Below, piece by piece: positions 23,378 to 30,102 of a stretch of DNA of 64,000 bases. Below the pieces are notes generated by a model. The model made no database searches. It saw only the letters and a program-made list of their open reading frames with translations, and was not told the DNA's origin. This stretch comes from Dehalococcoidia bacterium UBA6803. GTDB taxonomy: Bacteria > Chloroflexota > Dehalococcoidia > GIF9 > AB-539-J10. The first letter of the stretch is position 1. Each line of letters starts with the position of its first letter. Where the stretch lies: contig DKFF01000008.1 of assembly GCA_002452795.1 (NCBI GenBank), forward strand, positions 18,271-82,270. Direction: 5' to 3'. Both the position numbers and the translations under genes were made by a program.

Positions 23378-25459
23378 ATGCCCAGGTCATTTCCCCTGGA
23401 GGCGGTTAGAAATATAGGGATTATTGCCCATATTGATGCGGGCAAGACCACTGTCACTGAAAGGGTGCTCTATCATACGGGTCGCACATACAAGATTGGG
23501 GGAGTAGACGAGGGGACAGCGGTGATGGATTGGATGCAACAGGAGAGAGAGAGGGGAATTACCATTACCTCCGCTGCTACAACTTGCCATTGGAAAGATC
23601 ACCGTATCAATATTATTGATACGCCGGGGCATGTGGATTTTACGGCGGAAGTGGAGCGTAGCCTCAGGGTGTTGGATGGAGGGGTTGTGGTTCTGGACGC
23701 GGTTGCTGGAGTGGAAGCTCAATCCGAGGTAGTATGGCATCAGGCGGATCGGCATCACGTGGCCAGGATTTGTTTTGTGAATAAGATGGACAGGGTGGGG
23801 GCGGATTTTGAACGTGTGTTGACGATGATGGAACAGCGGTTGCATGCCCGAACGTTACCCTTGCAAATTCCTTTGGGGACAGAAAATCTTTTCAGGGGGG
23901 TAATTGATCTCATAGAGGAGCACGCCATAATTTTTCCCGAGGAAGCGGATGGAGAGTTGCAGGTATCGCCTGTGCCGGAAGAAATTAGACAGCAGGCGAA
24001 AAAGTCTCGGCAGGCGTTGATAGAAAAGTTGGCAGAAAATGATGACCGGGTGATGTTGATGTATCTTGAAGGGGAGGAAATCTCTGTTGCCGAGCTTAAA
24101 GCGAGTATACGTAGATTAACAGTGACGGGGCGAATAGTGCCAGTGTTGTGTGGCAGTGCATTGAAGGGTAGAGGAATTCGTCCTTTGCTTGATGCTGTCG
24201 TGGAGTATTTGCCATCGCCTCTTGATTTGCCATCGATTCGCGTCCTTGACCCCGATGTGCAGAAAGAAGTGTATTGCCGAGCAGATGATGACGAACCTTT
24301 TTCGGCTCTGGCTTTCAAGGTAGTTTCTGATCCCTTTATGGGCAAATTGACCTATATACGGGTATATTCCGGAAGAGCCGAGACGGGAATGCAGGTTATG
24401 AATTCTTCCAGAGGAACGAAAGAGCGTCTGGGCAGATTATGTCTTATGCATGCTAATTGCCGTGAAGAGATCAAGCAGATTGATACAGGAGCGATTGTCG
24501 CTATTTTAGGACTTAAAAAAACACTCACAGGTGACACGCTTTGCAGTCCTTCGCGCATTGTCCTTTTTGAGGCTATTAAGTTTCCGGAACCTATCCTTTC
24601 TATGGCGATTGAACCTAAGAGCAAAGTTGACCAGGAAAAACTGGAAGGGGGCCTTTCCAAGCTCGTCAATGAAGACCCGACTCTCAGGTTCTATACCGAT
24701 TTTGAGACGGGGCAGGGCATCATTGCCGGAATGGGGGAATTACATCTTGAAGTGATGGTTGACCGCCTGTTCACTGAGCATGGAATACGAGTTAGTGTGG
24801 GTAGGCCGCAAGTGGCTTACAAGGAAACAGTTACCGTATCGGCGGAGGCCGAGGGTAAGTTTGTGCGTCAGTCCGGAGGTAGAGGCCAGTATGGGCAGGT
24901 AAAGATCAGGCTGGAGGCGGGAGAAAGAGGCAGTGGCTTTAAATTTATTGACCAGATTCGGTCAGGTGCAATTCCTCGGGAGTTTATTTCTTCTGTGGAG
25001 GCAGGGATCAGGGAAGCTCTAAGCAATGGAGGGGTGGCAGGGTACCCACTGGTAGATGTGCAAGTGGTTCTTTGTGATGGCAGTTTTCACGAAGTAGATT
25101 CCTCCGAGATGGCTTTTAAAATTGCAGGGTCTATGGCATTGAAGAATGGTGTGCGCAAAGCCAGCCCTATTATTCTGGAACCGATTATGAAGATGGAAAT
25201 TATATCGCCGTCACAGTTTATGGGTGATGTTATTGGCGACTTGGCCGCCAGGCGTGGGCGTATTGATGGAATAGAAACATACGAAGAGAGCTGTGCAGTG
25301 CATTGTTTCATTCCATTGTCAGAGACTTTTGGCTATGCTAGTGCTCTAAGGTCTCTCAGCCAGGGAAGGGCGAACTATTCCATGGATTTCTACTCCTACG
25401 ATAAGTTGCCGGACGCCCTTGCCTGTCAATTGATAGTCGCAACAGGGGAGAGGAAGTAA
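23378..25459 (+). CDS. fusA: elongation factor G
   Basis: Start at [25 protein letters not shown] (ATG 23378, GGAGAG RBS); full five-domain EF-G. Confidence 0.95.
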
Positions 25460-25768
25460 GTGACCAAACAGAAAATTCGTGTGAAGATTAAGGGATTTGA
25501 TCACAGGTTGGTTGATCAGTCCGTGGTGCAGATTGTGGAAGCGGCGGAGCGTACCGGAGCGGTTATTGTTGGCCCGGTGCCTTTGCCCACTCGTATTGAG
25601 AAGTTTTGTGTCATTCGTGCCTCAAATATTGACAAAGACTCTAGAGAACAGTTTGAGATACGGACACATAAGCGGTTCATTGATATTCTTGAACCGAGTG
25701 CTAAGACTATAGATGCGCTGACGCAGCTCAGTTTGCCATCGGGTGTGGAGATAGAGATTAAGTCGTAG
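25460..25768 (+). CDS. rpsJ: 30S ribosomal protein S10
   Basis: 102 aa, GTG start immediately after the fusA stop. Confidence 0.9.
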
Positions 25769-25776
25769 GAAAAAAA

Positions 25777-26403
25777 ATGATAAAGGGAATTCTTGGTAGA
25801 AAAATAGGGATGACGCAGGTCTTCCTGGAGGGGGGAGAGGCGGTACAGGTGACGGCTATCGAGGCCGGCCCATGTTTTGTCATCCAGGTGAAGAGCAAGG
25901 GCAGCGATGGTTATGACGCTGTGCAACTGGGTTTTCTTGAAGCTAAGAAGCTTAATGCTCCTCTTGCCGGGCGTTTTAAAGAAATGGGAAAGCTTCGCTT
26001 TCTGCGGGAATTTGAAATTGACGAGGTATCCTCGGTCAACAGAGGCGACAGAGTAGATGTCAGTTTTCTTAAACCGGGGGATTTGGTAACCGTATCAGGG
26101 GTATCCAAGGGCAGAGGATTTGCCGGGGTGGTGAAGCGGCATCATTTTGCTGGCGGGCCCAAAACACACGGGCAGTCCGATCGTCATCGAGCCCCGGGGT
26201 CTATAGGGGCGACCACCTATCCCGGGCGAGTGATTAAGGGAATGAAGATGGCGGGACATATGGGAAACAGAAAGGTGACCGTACGTAATTTACGGGTGGT
26301 TGAAGTTGATCCGGAACGTAATCTTTTGCTAGTTAAAGGGGGTGTCCCTGGAGCCAGCAGTGGTTTATTGACAATTAAAAGAAGCGGGGAAGGATCAGCG
26401 TGA
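25777..26403 (+). CDS. rplC: 50S ribosomal protein L3
   Basis: 208 aa L3. Confidence 0.95.
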   Translation: MIKGILGRKIGMTQVFLEGGEAVQVTAIEAGPCFVIQVKSKGSDGYDAVQLGFLEAKKLNAPLAGRFKEMGKLRFLREFEIDEVSSVNRGDRVDVSFLKPGDLVTVSGVSKGRGFAGVVKRHHFAGGPKTHGQSDRHRAPGSIGATTYPGRVIKGMKMAGHMGNRKVTVRNLRVVEVDPERNLLLVKGGVPGASSGLLTIKRSGEGSA

Positions 26404-27074
26404 AAATACCGGTATATAATTTGTCAGGTGAGGTTGTGGAGCAGATAGAGGTGGATGGAGAAGTTTTTGGCATCCCTTTTAACCAGGCGGTGGTACATCA
26501 GGCGTTGGTACGGCAGCTGGCAAACAGGCGGCAGGGAACAGTGAGCACGAAGACGCGAAGAGATGTTGTGGGGAGTACGCGTAAGCTTTATGCGCAGAAG
26601 GGCACAGGGCGGGCCCGAAGAGGAGACATCAAATCTCCTTTGCTTAGGGGAGGAGGGGTAGTATTTGGACCTAAGCCGCGTGATTATGGACAGTCCATGC
26701 CCAGGAAGATGCGGCAGCTGGCCTTGAAGTGTGTTCTTTCTGCCAAAGTGGAGGAAGAGGAGATGAAGATAGTGAAAGAGCTGGTGCTGGAAATACCTAA
26801 AACCAGGGAGATGAGTAAGGTGTTGTCAGGGCTGGCGGTTGAGTTTCCTATGTTGCTTGTCACCGAAAAAGCCGAGGCCGGTTTGGTCATGGCCTCCCGT
26901 AATCTGCAGGGAGTGAAAGTTTTGCCATCCTCTCTGGTTAATGTACTTGATTTGATGTCATGTCACACGGTGCTGGTTTCTGAGTTGGCTCTACGTAATA
27001 TGGAAAGGCTCTGGGGAAAAAGAGAGAAGCATCCTATGGAAACACGAGATGACGTCGAAAAGGCAGGTGAATAA
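26400..27074 (+). CDS. rplD: 50S ribosomal protein L4
   Basis: 224 aa L4. Confidence 0.9.
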
Positions 27075-27078
27075 CAGG

Positions 27079-27363
27079 ATGCATTTTTATGAAGTGTTGC
27101 GGCGCCCCTTAATTACGGAGAAATCAGCTTTACTGCAAGAGAGCAATCAGTATACTTTTGAGGTGAGCAAGTGTGCTACCAAGAGCCAGATTAGGGAAGC
27201 GGTGGAGAGAGCGTTTCACGTGGAAGTTGCAGATGTTAATGTGATGATCGTTCATGGCAAGACGCGACGGATGGGACTGAGGCAGGTGGTAAGGCCGTCC
27301 TGGAAGAAGGCAGTAGTCACTTTGAAAGAGGGGCATAAAGTTGCCTTTTTCGAAGGTGTTTAA
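27079..27363 (+). CDS. rplW: 50S ribosomal protein L23
   Basis: Start MHFYEVLRRPLITEKS (ATG 27079, AGGTGA RBS). Confidence 0.9.
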   Translation: MHFYEVLRRPLITEKSALLQESNQYTFEVSKCATKSQIREAVERAFHVEVADVNVMIVHGKTRRMGLRQVVRPSWKKAVVTLKEGHKVAFFEGV

Positions 27364-27398
27364 TATGATTAGCGGGAATACTTTCCGAGGAGTTGAAA

Positions 27399-27494
27399 TT
27401 GGGCTCAGTTCTTAAGTGGCGAAAGAAGAAAATGTCGAAGCATAAGCACAAGAAGTTGCTTAAGAAGAATCGTTGGAAGAAGACGCACTCGTAG
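27399..27494 (+). CDS. small highly basic protein, bS22-like (31 codons, TTG start)
   Basis: GAGGAG at 27387-27392, TTG at 27399; translation [32 protein letters not shown], stop at 27492-27494; lies in the 211-bp rplW-rplB spacer; closely resembles the mycobacterial bS22 peptide as recalled (MGSVIKKRRKRM.KKKHRKLL...). Confidence 0.5.
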
Positions 27495-27574
27495 CGTGTG
27501 CAAGGGCGGAGGATGTAGCGGGTCAGCGTTTGGGCCAGAGTATAAAATTTGGTGATTTGTGGTGTGATAAAGTT

Positions 27575-28399
27575 ATGGCATTGAAGATATATAAGCCGAC
27601 TTCTCCTGGCAGAAGAGGGATGACGGGGTTTGCTTTTGAGGAGATTACCAAAAAGACACCGGAGAGATCTCTTGTTATACCATTGAAGAAGTTGGCGGGA
27701 CGAAATTCTCGTGGGGTGATTACTGTTCGGCACAGGGGGGGGGGAGCTAAGCGCATGCTTCGTATTGTCGATTTTAAGAGGAGAAAGCTTGGCGTGGCTG
27801 GGCGGGTGGCCGCTATAGAGTATGATCCCAATCGCTCCGCCAGAATAGCGCTGATTCATTACCTTGACGGGGAAAAGAGGTATATTCTTGCTCCTCTGGG
27901 TTTGCAGGTAAATGATATGGTAGAGGCAGGAGAGAATAGTGAACCGAAAGTGGGTAACGCCTTGCCGTTGAAGGCAGTTCCCGTAGGTACGCTGGTGCAT
28001 AATCTTGAATTGCAGCCAGGACGAGGAGGGCAGGTGGTACGCAGCGCCGGTGTAGGCGCACAGGTGTTAGGGAAGGAAGGTAGACATGTGCTGGTGCGTT
28101 TACCTTCGGGAGAGGTGCGGCGGTTCCTGCAGGATTGTTTTGCTACAATCGGGCAGGTAGGCAATGTGGAGCATGAGAGTATATGCTTGGGGAAGGCAGG
28201 GCGCAAACGATGGCTGGGGATAAGGCCTTCTGTACGGGGTTCCGCTATGACTCCCAGGGATCATCCTCATGGTGGAGGGGAAGGCAGGGCTCCTATAGGG
28301 ATGCATCCCAAGACACCATGGGGAAAGCCTGCGTTGGGCTACAAGACGCGTAAGCGCAAGAAATCTTCGGATAATATGATAGTGACACGGAGGGAATGA
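27575..28399 (+). CDS. rplB: 50S ribosomal protein L2
   Basis: Start [15 protein letters not shown] (ATG 27575); 274 aa. Confidence 0.95.
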
Positions 28400-28403
28400 G
28401 GGT

Positions 28404-28697
28404 ATGTCGCGATCTACTAAAAAAGGGCCCTATTGTGATCCCAAATTATTAAAGAAAATAGAATTGATTAACAGTTCCGGAGAGAAAGCGGCAATAAAGA
28501 CGTGGTCCCGTGCGTCTACTATTTTGCCTCAGATGATAGGGCATACTATTGCGGTACACAATGGGCGCAAACATGTCCCTGTCTTCATCACCGAGAGCAT
28601 GGTGGGGCAGAAGCTGGCAGAGTTTTCCCCTACCAGGACGTTCAGGGGACACGTTACCAAAGCCCAAGTGACCACTCAAGGCAAAAAACAGGTGTAA
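28404..28697 (+). CDS. rpsS: 30S ribosomal protein S19
   Basis: 97 aa S19. Confidence 0.95.
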
Positions 28698-28703
28698 ATG
28701 TAG

Positions 28704-29042
28704 ATGAAAGTGAAAGCTGTGGCAAAGGATATTGGATATTCTCCGCGAAAAGTTCGCCTGGTAGCGAATATGATTCGCGGGAAGAAGGTTGATCGGGCGC
28801 TGGATATTCTCAGATTTATGACTACTCCCGCGGCAACTGCTGTGGCTAAAACGGTGCGATCGGCTGCTGCGAATGCCGAGAATAATTTTCAGATGTTACC
28901 GGCAGAGCTTAGGGTAACAGAGATAATGGTTGACCAGGGGCGTACACTGAAGAGACACAGGCCTCAGTCCAGGGGTAGAATTGACCCGATTTTGCGGCGG
29001 TCTGCGCATATTACGGTTTTTGTTGCAGAGGAGGAAAAATAG
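28704..29042 (+). CDS. rplV: 50S ribosomal protein L22
   Basis: 112 aa L22. Confidence 0.95.
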   Translation: MKVKAVAKDIGYSPRKVRLVANMIRGKKVDRALDILRFMTTPAATAVAKTVRSAAANAENNFQMLPAELRVTEIMVDQGRTLKRHRPQSRGRIDPILRRSAHITVFVAEEEK

Positions 29043-29714
29043 TTGGGACAGAAAGTTGATCCACGGGGTTTTCGTCTGGGAGTTATCCGGGATTGGGATG
29101 CTCGGTGGTATGCAGAGAAGGACTATGCAAAGTTTCTGCAGCAGGATCTGCAGATGCGCAGCATGGTGAAGCGCAAATGCAGCAATGGTTATGTCGCGCG
29201 GATGGAGATTGAACGTATCAGCGGAGAAGTAATGGTAACTCTTTATTCTTCCCGTCCTGGCATTTTGATTGGCAGAGGGGGACAGAACGTAGAGGCTTTA
29301 AAGTCGGACATGGAGAAGCTCGTAGAGGAAAAGATCCGTTTGACAATAAAGGAAGTGGAAAACCCTGAGGTCGAAGCTGTTCTGGTAGCGAGAAATATAG
29401 CGGAGCGGCTTGAGGGCCGGGTGACTTTCCGTTGGGCGATGAAGCAAACTGCGGGCAGGACCATGCAGGCCGGTGCCCTGGGGGTTAAGATAAAGTGTGC
29501 AGGTAGGCTGGGGGGGCAGGAGATTGCCCGTTCCGAGACGTTGCATCTGGGCAGGGTTCCGTTGCATACTTTGCGTGCTAACATTGATTACGGTTTTAGC
29601 GAAGCGCGTACCGCAATGGGTCGAATTGGCGTTAAAGTCTGGATTTACAAGGGAGACATTCTCCCTGAAGAGAGGAAGAGTGGTGTTACAGCCGAAGAGG
29701 GTGAAGCATCGTAA
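29043..29714 (+). CDS. rpsC: 30S ribosomal protein S3
   Basis: 223 aa, TTG start; KH domain motifs. Confidence 0.9.
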
Positions 29715-30102
29715 AGTGCATAGAGGCAGGATGAAAGGTTCTGCTTCCAGGGGCGCTAGCGTAGCTTTTGGTGAATTTGGTTTGAGAGTAGAGGAATCTA
29801 CTTGGATTACTGCCAGGCAAATTGAGGCTGCTCGTCGGGTGCTGGTGCGTTTTTTACGCAAGGGTGGGCACATGTGGATCAGGATTTTTCCGGATAAGCC
29901 TGTGACTAAAAAGCCGGCGGAGACCAGAATGGGGGGAGGAAAGGGCGCAACGGAGGAATGGGTGGCTGTAGCGAAGCGGGGCAGGGTAATTTTTGAAGTT
30001 GAGGGAATAGGTGAAGAAGAGGCTAGGAGGGGATTACGCCAGGCTGCACATAAGCTTCCTGTAAGCACCAGTTTTGTGATGAAAGAGGGGGAGGGGAGTT
30101 GA
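29683..30102 (+). CDS. rplP: 50S ribosomal protein L16
   Basis: GTG at 29683 gives [19 protein letters not shown]; overlaps rpsC end. Confidence 0.9.

What the first reader, a model, noticed from the sequence alone, without database searches (positions are those of the whole stretch)
27399..27494. Probably unannotated bS22-like mini-protein gene inside the S10 operon
The rplW-rplB spacer is unusually long at 211 bp. It contains a GAGGAG ribosome-binding site and a TTG-initiated 31-codon ORF encoding [31 protein letters not shown], which is about 55 percent Lys/Arg/His. This closely resembles the ~33-aa ribosomal protein bS22 seen in mycobacterial and Bacteroidota ribosome structures, recalled as MGSVIKKRRKRM.KKKHRKLL.... 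Such tiny genes are routinely missed, and its placement inside the S10 operon would be notable.
Basis: partly seen in the sequence, partly recalled or inferred. Interest (0 to 1): 0.6.

Follow-up and report, generated by a model that had tools for sequence, protein, structure and literature searches.

The report
Uncalled bS22 ribosomal mini-gene in S10 operon
The 31-codon ORF between rplW and rplB is a real gene for the tiny 30S ribosomal protein bS22, missed by gene callers in this Dehalococcoidia genome but already annotated at the same place in related genomes, so it is a sound but fairly ordinary annotation catch.

Summary
Window 27399-27494 (+) is a TTG-initiated 31-codon ORF, with GAGGAG 6 nt upstream, in a 211-nt rplW-rplB spacer. 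The median spacer in 78 related loci is 12 nt.

The interpretation also holds. The peptide scores 47.1 bits against NCBIfam NF047430 (30S ribosomal protein bS22, equivalog; cutoff 34) and 32 bits against Pfam COX24_C (cutoff 23). It aligns from residue 1 with bS22 chains of solved ribosomes. The best score in 20 codon-shuffled windows is 9.8 bits. Across relatives pN/pS is 0.10-0.38 with synonymous sites near saturation.

The window is 100% identical to a Dehalococcoidia (Chloroflexota) MAG contig. On that contig no gene is called in the spacer, and rplB is called 34 codons too long, overlapping the mini-gene's end.

The rplW-bS22-rplB order recurs in at least six other lineages, five of them labelled Dehalococcoidia. 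NCBI names some of these proteins "30S ribosomal protein bS22". Other Chloroflexota, two Nitrospirota and one Desulfobacterales lineage encode bS22 outside ribosomal operons.

This is a new member of a known family. The operon position is clade-specific and did not appear in the papers I could search. Ribosome incorporation is inferred, not shown.

The parts
27399..27494 (+). bS22 coding sequence: TTG start, 31 codons, TAG stop. Product [31 protein letters not shown].
   Evidence: NCBIfam NF047430 47.1 bits against a cutoff of 34. Pfam PF08213 32 bits against a cutoff of 23. PDB bS22 chains match at E 7e-5 to 7.5e-4, aligned from residue 1. Orthologous ORFs sit at the same position in L004, L083-L087, L094/95 and L106. 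pN/pS is 0.10-0.38.
27387..27392 (+). Shine-Dalgarno-like GAGGAG, 6 nt upstream of the TTG start.
   Evidence: Read directly from the sequence. Relatives also carry purine-rich GGAG/GGGGA motifs upstream of their start codons.
27079..27363 (+). rplW (uL23), the upstream neighbour. The ORF opens at 27049 (104 aa), but relatives have 94 aa, which fits ATG 27079.
   Evidence: ORF list. Called L23 genes are 94 aa in L083-L087 and L094. Both the 104-aa and 94-aa forms are in the collection.
27575..28399 (+). rplB (uL2), the downstream neighbour. The homology-supported start is ATG 27575 (274 aa).
   Evidence: tblastn of the 274-aa form aligns from residue 1 to relatives' L2. Recorded gene calls use TTG 27473 (308 aa) instead, which overlaps the last 22 nt of the bS22 ORF.
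27495..27574 (+). 80-nt gap between the bS22 stop and the rplB start, with no recognised feature.
   Evidence: RNA fold z-score 0.29. No terminator-like site. No Rfam match anywhere near gathering score. The same gap is 10-37 nt in relatives.
25460..27363 (+). Upstream part of the S10 operon, rpsJ-rplC-rplD-rplW, same strand and tightly packed.
   Evidence: ORF list. Pfam labels on the gene calls of the 100% identical contig L098.

Best explanation
The ORF is the gene for small-subunit ribosomal protein bS22 (Pfam COX24_C / DUF1713 family; bacterial counterpart of mitochondrial mS38). It sits between rplW and rplB in the S10 operon of a Dehalococcoidia (Chloroflexota) bacterium.

Shown here:
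- The peptide belongs to the bS22 family by curated model thresholds.
- It is conserved under purifying selection.
- It has its own Shine-Dalgarno motif and a TTG start.
- It lies on the operon strand, with no terminator-like site and no better-than-chance promoter in the spacer.

Inferred from solved ribosomes of Mycobacterium, Flavobacterium and Borrelia:
- The roughly 31-residue, highly basic helical peptide is made together with the other S10-operon proteins.
- It is buried in the 30S pocket formed by 16S rRNA helices h2, h27, h44 and h45, next to the decoding centre.
- It touches the 50S subunit as an inter-subunit bridge.
- The conserved Lys16 contacts the h44 backbone.

Placement in the S10 operon would tie its synthesis to that of the core ribosomal proteins.
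For: Family membership:
- NCBIfam bS22 equivalog 47.1 bits (cutoff 34), model positions 1-30 of 31.
- Pfam COX24_C 32 bits (cutoff 23).
- Alignment from residue 1 with bS22 chains 8crx_X, 9e16_x, 5o5j and 6dzi_j: 57% identity to the two compared (the mycobacterial 5o5j-group sequence and 8crx_X), 75-79% with K and R treated as equivalent.
- All invariant family columns are kept (M1 G2 V4 K6 R8 M12 K19), and all nearly invariant ones except R28, which is K here. K16 is present.
- Chance is excluded: 46.6 bits against at most 9.8 bits in shuffled windows.

Conservation:
- The ORF recurs at the same rplW-rplB position in L004, L083, L084-86, L087, L094/95 and L106.
- pN/pS is 0.10-0.38 with pS mostly 0.6-1.1.
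- TTG starts recur in L004, L084-86 and L096/97.

Operon context:
- No terminator-like site in the spacer. Promoter-like matches are not above expectation, 4 found against 2.3 +/- 1.5.

Literature:
- The binding pocket, Lys16-h44 contact and helical fold come from PMC10618245, PMC10081302 and PMC7797042.
- AlphaFold2 predicts a confident helix over residues 2-30, pLDDT 93.7.
Against: There is no direct evidence of expression or of the peptide in ribosomes of this uncultured lineage.

The window holds no 16S rRNA, so the binding pocket could not be examined.

Only 64 kb are visible, so a second bS22 copy elsewhere in the genome cannot be excluded.

Foldseek found no structural match, as expected for a single helix, so the fold evidence is weak.

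The gaps of 35 nt before and 80 nt after the ORF are looser than in relatives and remain unexplained.
Confidence: 0.9

Rival explanations
1. The ORF is a cis-acting leader peptide (uORF) whose translation tunes rplB expression, and the peptide itself is not a ribosome component.
For: It lies directly upstream of rplB in an unusually long spacer. It uses a weak TTG start. The rplB Shine-Dalgarno motif in this window looks weak.
Against: The same peptide family is encoded at unrelated loci in other Chloroflexota, Nitrospirota and Desulfobacterales, with no rplB nearby. It passes the curated bS22 equivalog cutoff. The amino-acid sequence, not merely the presence of an ORF, is under purifying selection. 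The 80-nt segment before rplB has no structure beyond chance.
Confidence: 0.04
2. It is a bS22-family paralogue with a conditional or non-canonical role, for example an alternative copy used under particular conditions, while a second housekeeping copy lies elsewhere in the genome.
For: Only 64 kb of the genome are visible. bS22 genes sit at several different places in Chloroflexota. bS22 is non-essential in M. smegmatis (PMC10081302).
Against: Only one bS22-like segment exists in the window. Placement in the core S10 operon argues for constitutive, stoichiometric expression. The sequence is a typical member of the family alignment, not a divergent one.
Confidence: 0.05
3. It is a chance ORF in a lysine-codon-rich, non-coding spacer.
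For: It is very short, has low-complexity composition and a non-ATG start, and gene callers skipped it.
Against: 46.6-47.1 bits against at most 9.8 bits in codon-shuffled windows. Orthologues show saturated synonymous change but a conserved peptide. The spacer is long only where this ORF is present; L042 is the one exception.
Confidence: 0.01

Closest known systems
bS22 of Mycobacterium smegmatis / M. tuberculosis (MSMEG_0945; PDB 5o5j, 5o61 and others)
   Same: Same family (NF047430, PF08213). Same length class, 31 vs 33 aa. Identical N-terminus MGSV. M12, K14, K16, H17, K19, L20 and L21 are conserved. 57% identity over 28 residues. Extremely basic.
   Different: The window peptide has W7 and W26 and a ...RWKKTHS tail, close to the ...TRWQRxH tail typical of Chloroflexota. 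The papers read give only a locus tag for the mycobacterial gene (MSMEG_0945) and say nothing about its neighbours. Here the gene sits between rplW and rplB.
bS22 genes annotated by NCBI in Dehalococcoidia MAGs (for example P0006, P0014, P0019, P0044)
   Same: 67-81% identical peptides. Identical gene order L23-bS22-L2 in the S10 operon. Several also start with TTG.
   Different: Those are called and named, and are tightly packed: a 1-nt overlap to a 23-nt gap before the gene, and 10-37 nt after it. The window's copy is uncalled, has gaps of 35 and 80 nt, and its exact sequence is not in the collection.
Borrelia burgdorferi bS22 (bb0822)
   Same: A genetically unannotated mini-protein with a non-canonical start codon (GUG there, TTG here). 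It was found only by translated search, and that paper predicted that more such cases exist (PMC10618245).
   Different: The Borrelia protein was seen directly in cryo-EM density; the protein here is only inferred. By sequence the window peptide is much closer to the actinobacterial, Nitrospirota and Chloroflexota type.
Mitochondrial mS38 (AURKAIP1 / Cox24) and eukaryotic eL41
   Same: Shares the COX24_C domain with mS38: weak matches at E 0.1-1 to the C-terminal parts of mS38 chains. These proteins occupy the analogous 30S pocket according to PMC10618245 and PMC10081302.
   Different: mS38 proteins are much longer (about 70-200 aa chains) and carry the domain at the C-terminus. The window peptide is the domain alone.

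Membership tests
30S ribosomal protein bS22 (NCBIfam NF047430, equivalog) | Whole-protein score at or above the curated cutoff of 34 bits | tested here: met
   47.1 bits, E 1.8e-12, protein residues 1-30 on model positions 1-30 of 31.
30S ribosomal protein bS22 (NCBIfam NF047430, equivalog) | Size of about 30-33 aa and extreme basicity | tested here: met
   31 aa, 17 of 31 residues K/R/H. Family members are 29-33 aa.
30S ribosomal protein bS22 (NCBIfam NF047430, equivalog) | Conserved residues of the family, including the N-terminal MGSV motif and the Lys16 reported to contact 16S h44 | tested here: met
   M1 G2 S3 V4 K6 R8 K10 M12 K14 K16 H17 K19 L21 R25 are all present. The role of Lys16 is taken from PMC10081302. 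The contact itself cannot be tested here.
30S ribosomal protein bS22 (NCBIfam NF047430, equivalog) | Sequence similarity to chains physically observed as bS22 in solved ribosomes | tested here: met
   8crx_X E 7.2e-5, 9e16_x 7.7e-5, 5o5j group 1.3e-4, 6dzi_j 7.5e-4, all aligned from residue 1 or 2.
30S ribosomal protein bS22 (NCBIfam NF047430, equivalog) | Alpha-helical peptide | tested here: inconclusive
   AlphaFold2 gives a helix over residues 2-30 at pLDDT 93.7. Any Lys-rich peptide could give the same result, and Foldseek against the PDB returned no match.
30S ribosomal protein bS22 (NCBIfam NF047430, equivalog) | Physical presence in the 30S subunit pocket between h44 and h45 | not testable with these tools
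   Needs cryo-EM or mass spectrometry of ribosomes. There is no 16S rRNA gene in the window.
Pfam PF08213 COX24_C (DUF1713) | Score at or above the gathering threshold of 23 bits | tested here: met
   32 bits, E 1.1e-7, residues 1-27 on model positions 1-27 of 33.
S10 ribosomal-protein operon (as a transcription unit) | Same strand as its neighbours, with no terminator or independent promoter separating it from rplW and rplB | tested here: met
   Same strand. No terminator-like site in 27364-27574. The one promoter-like match at 27341-27369 is within chance expectation. The gene order is conserved in seven lineages counting the window.
S10 ribosomal-protein operon (as a transcription unit) | Co-transcription with the flanking genes | not testable with these tools
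   Needs RNA-seq or metatranscriptome reads spanning rplW-bS22-rplB.

The most novel reading that the evidence does not exclude
The rplW-bS22-rplB order may be a derived character of one Dehalococcoidia lineage. In that reading a free-standing bS22 gene was captured once by the otherwise almost invariant S10 operon, which fixed bS22 as a constitutive, stoichiometric core ribosomal protein there. The gene was later lost from that site, or moved, in sister lineages. The arrangement would then serve both as a phylogenetic marker and as a rare documented case of remodelling of the most conserved bacterial operon. No paper I could search mentions it.
Probability: 0.45. Interest if true: 0.4.

Novelty: new member of a known kind. 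Interest (0 to 1): 0.3.

Why it matters
Practically, this corrects two linked annotation errors in this genome. A real ribosomal protein gene is missing, and rplB is called 34 codons too long because the caller filled the empty spacer.

It is also one more example of how bS22 escapes gene finders because it is tiny, has low-complexity composition and uses a non-ATG start. The Borrelia ribosome paper predicted that more such cases exist.

Biologically, it extends bS22 to Chloroflexota with good sequence evidence. It also shows that the family has entered the S10 operon in one clade, while it sits at unrelated loci in other Chloroflexota, Nitrospirota and Desulfobacterales. That is useful for tracing the history of this mS38/eL41-like protein.

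It does not change the understanding of the ribosome. The same gene at the same place is already named by NCBI in related MAGs.

Tried and rejected
I worked around this with the 41-aa stop-to-stop translation and then with a profile.
- Single-sequence phmmer against 1.84 billion representatives gave only one hit at E <= 1e-3, because a 31-aa query cannot reach significance in so large a library. It says nothing about distribution.
- Foldseek of the AlphaFold2 model against the PDB gave no match. It is uninformative for a single helix.
- The 80-nt gap after the ORF showed nothing: RNA fold z 0.29, no terminator, and only a sub-threshold chance hit in Rfam.
- The promoter-like match at 27341-27369 is within chance expectation, so I rejected it as evidence for an internal promoter.
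- I rejected the upstream in-frame TTG at 27393 (33-aa form) as the start. It scores lower against the model, lies immediately after the GAGGAG with no spacing, and relatives begin M/L-GSV.
- I rejected the TTG at 27473 as the rplB start. Homologues align from MALK at 27575.
- Literature searches for bS22 together with Chloroflexota, Dehalococcoidia or the S10 operon returned nothing relevant. The two listed hits use BS22 as a strain name.

Full report
OBSERVATION

The sequence is as described.
- rplW ends with TAA at 27361-27363.
- A GAGGAG motif lies at 27387-27392.
- A TTG at 27399, 6 nt downstream, opens a 31-codon frame ending with TAG at 27492-27494.
- The frame encodes (M)[30 protein letters not shown].
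- rplB begins with ATG at 27575 (MALKIYKP...), which gives a 211-nt spacer.
- K+R+H make up 17 of 31 residues.

The mechanical ORF list starts the frame two codons earlier, at TTG 27393. That start has no spacing from the GAGGAG and scores lower against the family model (44.3 vs 47.1 bits). Relatives also begin M/L-GSV.

The spacer is a true outlier. In 78 related loci fetched through the L2 protein, the rplW-rplB gap has a median of 12 nt. Only L004 (133 nt) and L042 (233 nt) are also long.

WHAT IT IS

The peptile passes the curated cutoffs of two family models.
- NCBIfam equivalog model for 30S ribosomal protein bS22, NF047430: 47.1 bits against a cutoff of 34, E 1.8e-12, model positions 1-30 of 31.
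- Pfam COX24_C (PF08213): 32 bits against a gathering score of 23.

Against all PDB chains it aligns from residue 1 with chains deposited as bS22 (8crx_X, 9e16_x, the 5o5j/5o61 group, 6dzi_j; E 7e-5 to 7.5e-4). It aligns more weakly with mitochondrial mS38 chains. Identity to the mycobacterial sequence (5o5j group) and to 8crx_X is 57% over 28 residues, and 75-79% if K and R are treated as equivalent.

An HMM built without the window or L004 sequences scores the ORF at 46.6 bits. The next best of the window's 1758 six-frame segments scores 10.0 bits, and the best in 20 codon-shuffled windows scores 9.8 bits. Chance is excluded.

In a 35-sequence family alignment the window peptide keeps every invariant column (M1 G2 V4 K6 R8 M12 K19). 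It also keeps every nearly invariant one except R28, which is K here. It has the Lys16 that, in M. smegmatis, contacts the h44 backbone beside the aminoglycoside site (PMC10081302).

AlphaFold2 predicts one confident helix over residues 2-30, pLDDT 93.7. This is consistent with the helical peptides seen in ribosomes but is weak evidence, and Foldseek found nothing.

ORGANISM AND ANNOTATION STATUS

The window's L2 is closest to Dehalococcoidia/Chloroflexota MAGs, at 75% identity or less. Contig DJWI01000007.1 of NCBI assembly GCA_002440925.1 is 100% identical to window 24549-29863.

The window's L23, S19, L22 and L3 are in the 15-billion-protein collection as exact sequences, on up to 15 contigs. 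The bS22 peptide is not, in either the 31-aa or the 33-aa form. The 274-aa L2 is also absent.

The recorded gene calls on the identical contigs explain this. Nothing is called in the spacer. On L098 and L102 L2 is called as 308 aa, and on L099 the call starts at the same coordinate but is cut by the contig end; that start is the TTG at window 27473, which overlaps the last 22 nt of the bS22 ORF. On two short contigs (L100, L101) an antisense ORF is called there instead.

So "unannotated" is correct for this genome's calls. One caveat applies: these are the collection's gene calls, and I could not see the original record's own annotation.

CONSERVATION AND DISTRIBUTION

A profile search found 4099 proteins at E <= 1. 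All but one of the 120 listed carry PF08213, and many come from Dehalococcoidia/Chloroflexota MAGs. NCBI names them "30S ribosomal protein bS22" or "AURKAIP1/COX24 domain-containing protein".

| Group | Loci | Position of bS22 |
|---|---|---|
| Dehalococcoidia MAGs | L004, L083, L084-86, L087, L094/95 | L23-bS22-L2, inside the S10 operon |
| 2.2-kb contig binned as "TA06" | L106 | L23-bS22-L2; among the loci held, its L2 is most similar to L087 and L083 |
| Other Chloroflexota | L088-91 | between a ChsH2-like gene and an aldehyde dehydrogenase, downstream of a glutamate-kinase-like gene |
| Other Chloroflexota | L092-93 | between an HGD-D gene and GAPDH |
| Other Chloroflexota | L104-105 | upstream of a DNA polymerase III delta'-like gene |
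| Nitrospirota | L081, L082 | outside ribosomal operons |
| Desulfobacterales | L096-97 | outside ribosomal operons |

Of the 80 loci picked by L2 similarity, only L004 has the gene in the spacer. About a dozen other Dehalococcoidia in that set lack it there.

On a neighbour-joining tree of L2, the window groups with L083, L087, L004 and L084-86 in one clade whose members all carry the insertion. L094/95 carry it too but sit inside the sister Dehalococcoidia clade, whose other members lack it. This is a single-protein tree without support values, so it is only indicative.

Among the S10-type ORFs, synonymous sites are near saturation (pS mostly 0.6-1.1) while pN/pS is 0.10-0.38. That is purifying selection on the peptide. 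TTG starts recur in L004, L084-86 and L096/97, and GTG occurs in L081. The non-ATG start here is therefore normal for the family, as with the GUG start of Borrelia bS22 (PMC10618245).

HOW IT MOST LIKELY WORKS

Shown here:
- It is a family member under selection.
- It has its own Shine-Dalgarno motif and start codon.
- It lies on the operon strand.
- The spacer has no terminator-like site and no promoter match above chance.

Inferred:
- It is transcribed as part of the S10 operon and translated independently. In the window it sits 35 nt after rplW. In L083 and L087 its start overlaps the rplW stop by 1 nt, which suggests translational coupling there.
- The product enters the 30S subunit pocket formed by h2, h27, h44 and h45 near the decoding centre and bridges to the 50S subunit. 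This is what is seen in Mycobacterium, Flavobacterium and Borrelia ribosomes.

I put the probability that this is a bS22 gene at about 0.9. Incorporation into the ribosome is untested.

RIVALS

| Rival | Probability | Main argument against |
|---|---|---|
| Leader peptide or uORF regulating rplB | about 0.04 | The same family is encoded at unrelated loci, and the amino-acid sequence itself is under selection |
| Conditional paralogue, with another copy elsewhere | about 0.05 | Cannot be excluded from 64 kb, but the core-operon placement argues against it |
| Chance ORF | about 0.01 | Refuted by the model scores, the shuffled controls and the substitution pattern |

COMPARISON WITH WHAT IS KNOWN, AND NOVELTY

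This is a typical bS22 of the Chloroflexota type, with a W7 variant and an ...RWxxxH tail. The family, its structure and its habit of being missed by gene finders are all published.

The S10-operon position is already visible in public NCBI annotation of related MAGs. No paper in the searchable library links ribosomal bS22 with Chloroflexota or with the S10 operon.

I rate it a new member of a known kind, with modest interest (0.3). It is a sound annotation correction plus a clade-specific insertion into a very conserved operon.

UNEXPLAINED

- The 80-nt gap after the ORF is 10-37 nt in relatives and has no detectable structure, terminator or Rfam match.
- Whether the S10 placement arose once or more than once is not settled.

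Noticed in passing
window 27473-27574: On contigs 100% identical to the window across the spacer, rplB is called as 308 aa from TTG 27473 (L098, L102; the same start on L099, cut by the contig end). Homologues support ATG 27575 (274 aa). The false 34-codon extension overlaps the last 22 nt of the bS22 ORF and probably helped hide it.
   Followed up: yes
window 27049-27078: The rplW ORF opens at ATG 27049 (104 aa) and overlaps the end of rplD (stop at 27074). Relatives' L23 is 94 aa, which fits the second ATG at 27079 (MHFYEVLRRPL...). Both forms occur in the protein collection.
   Followed up: partly
window 25457-25462; also L083-L087, L094, L098: fusA (EF-G) ends at 25459 and rpsJ starts at 25460, with no tuf gene between them. 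The related Dehalococcoidia loci likewise show EF-G followed by S10 with at most a 9-nt gap. tuf must be encoded elsewhere.
   Followed up: no
L042 3768-4000 (Clostridiaceae MAG JAAYKJ010000119.1): A 233-nt rplW-rplB gap, the longest of the 78 loci. It has stop codons in all three forward frames, no bS22 hit and no Rfam match near threshold. Its content is unexplained.
   Followed up: partly
L100 2769-3224 and L101 2769-3212 (minus strand); window 27317-28000 (minus strand): Where the contig ends inside rplB, gene callers picked the long antisense ORF (227 aa in the window) instead of the truncated rplB. This is an annotation artefact on the opposite strand of rplB and the spacer.
   Followed up: partly
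L088-L091 (Chloroflexota, bS22 cluster P0039): Here bS22 sits downstream of a glutamate-5-kinase-like gene (AA_kinase+PUA) and directly upstream of an aldehyde dehydrogenase. This looks like a proline-biosynthesis setting. From memory (unverified), the actinobacterial bS22 gene also lies beside a proline gene (proC), so this may be an older linkage.
   Followed up: no
L106 (SOIP01000248.1, labelled candidate division TA06): This 2.2-kb contig has L23-bS22-L2-S19-L22-S3. Among the loci held, its L2 is most similar to L087 and L083 (72-73%), both from MAGs named Dehalococcoidia. The TA06 label may be a binning error, or the arrangement may extend beyond Chloroflexota.
   Followed up: partly
P0005 (46 aa) and PDB chain 9j1m_x (66 aa): Both contain the bS22 motif twice in tandem: an internal KKRRKRMSKKKHRKLLRK repeat in P0005, and two complete copies in 9j1m_x. 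Whether these are real fused genes or artefacts of assembly or deposition is not known.
   Followed up: no
window 27495-27574: The 80-nt gap between bS22 and rplB is 2-8 times longer than in relatives (10-37 nt). It shows no fold beyond chance, no terminator and no Rfam hit. The rplB Shine-Dalgarno motif looks weak (GGTG about 10 nt upstream).
   Followed up: yes
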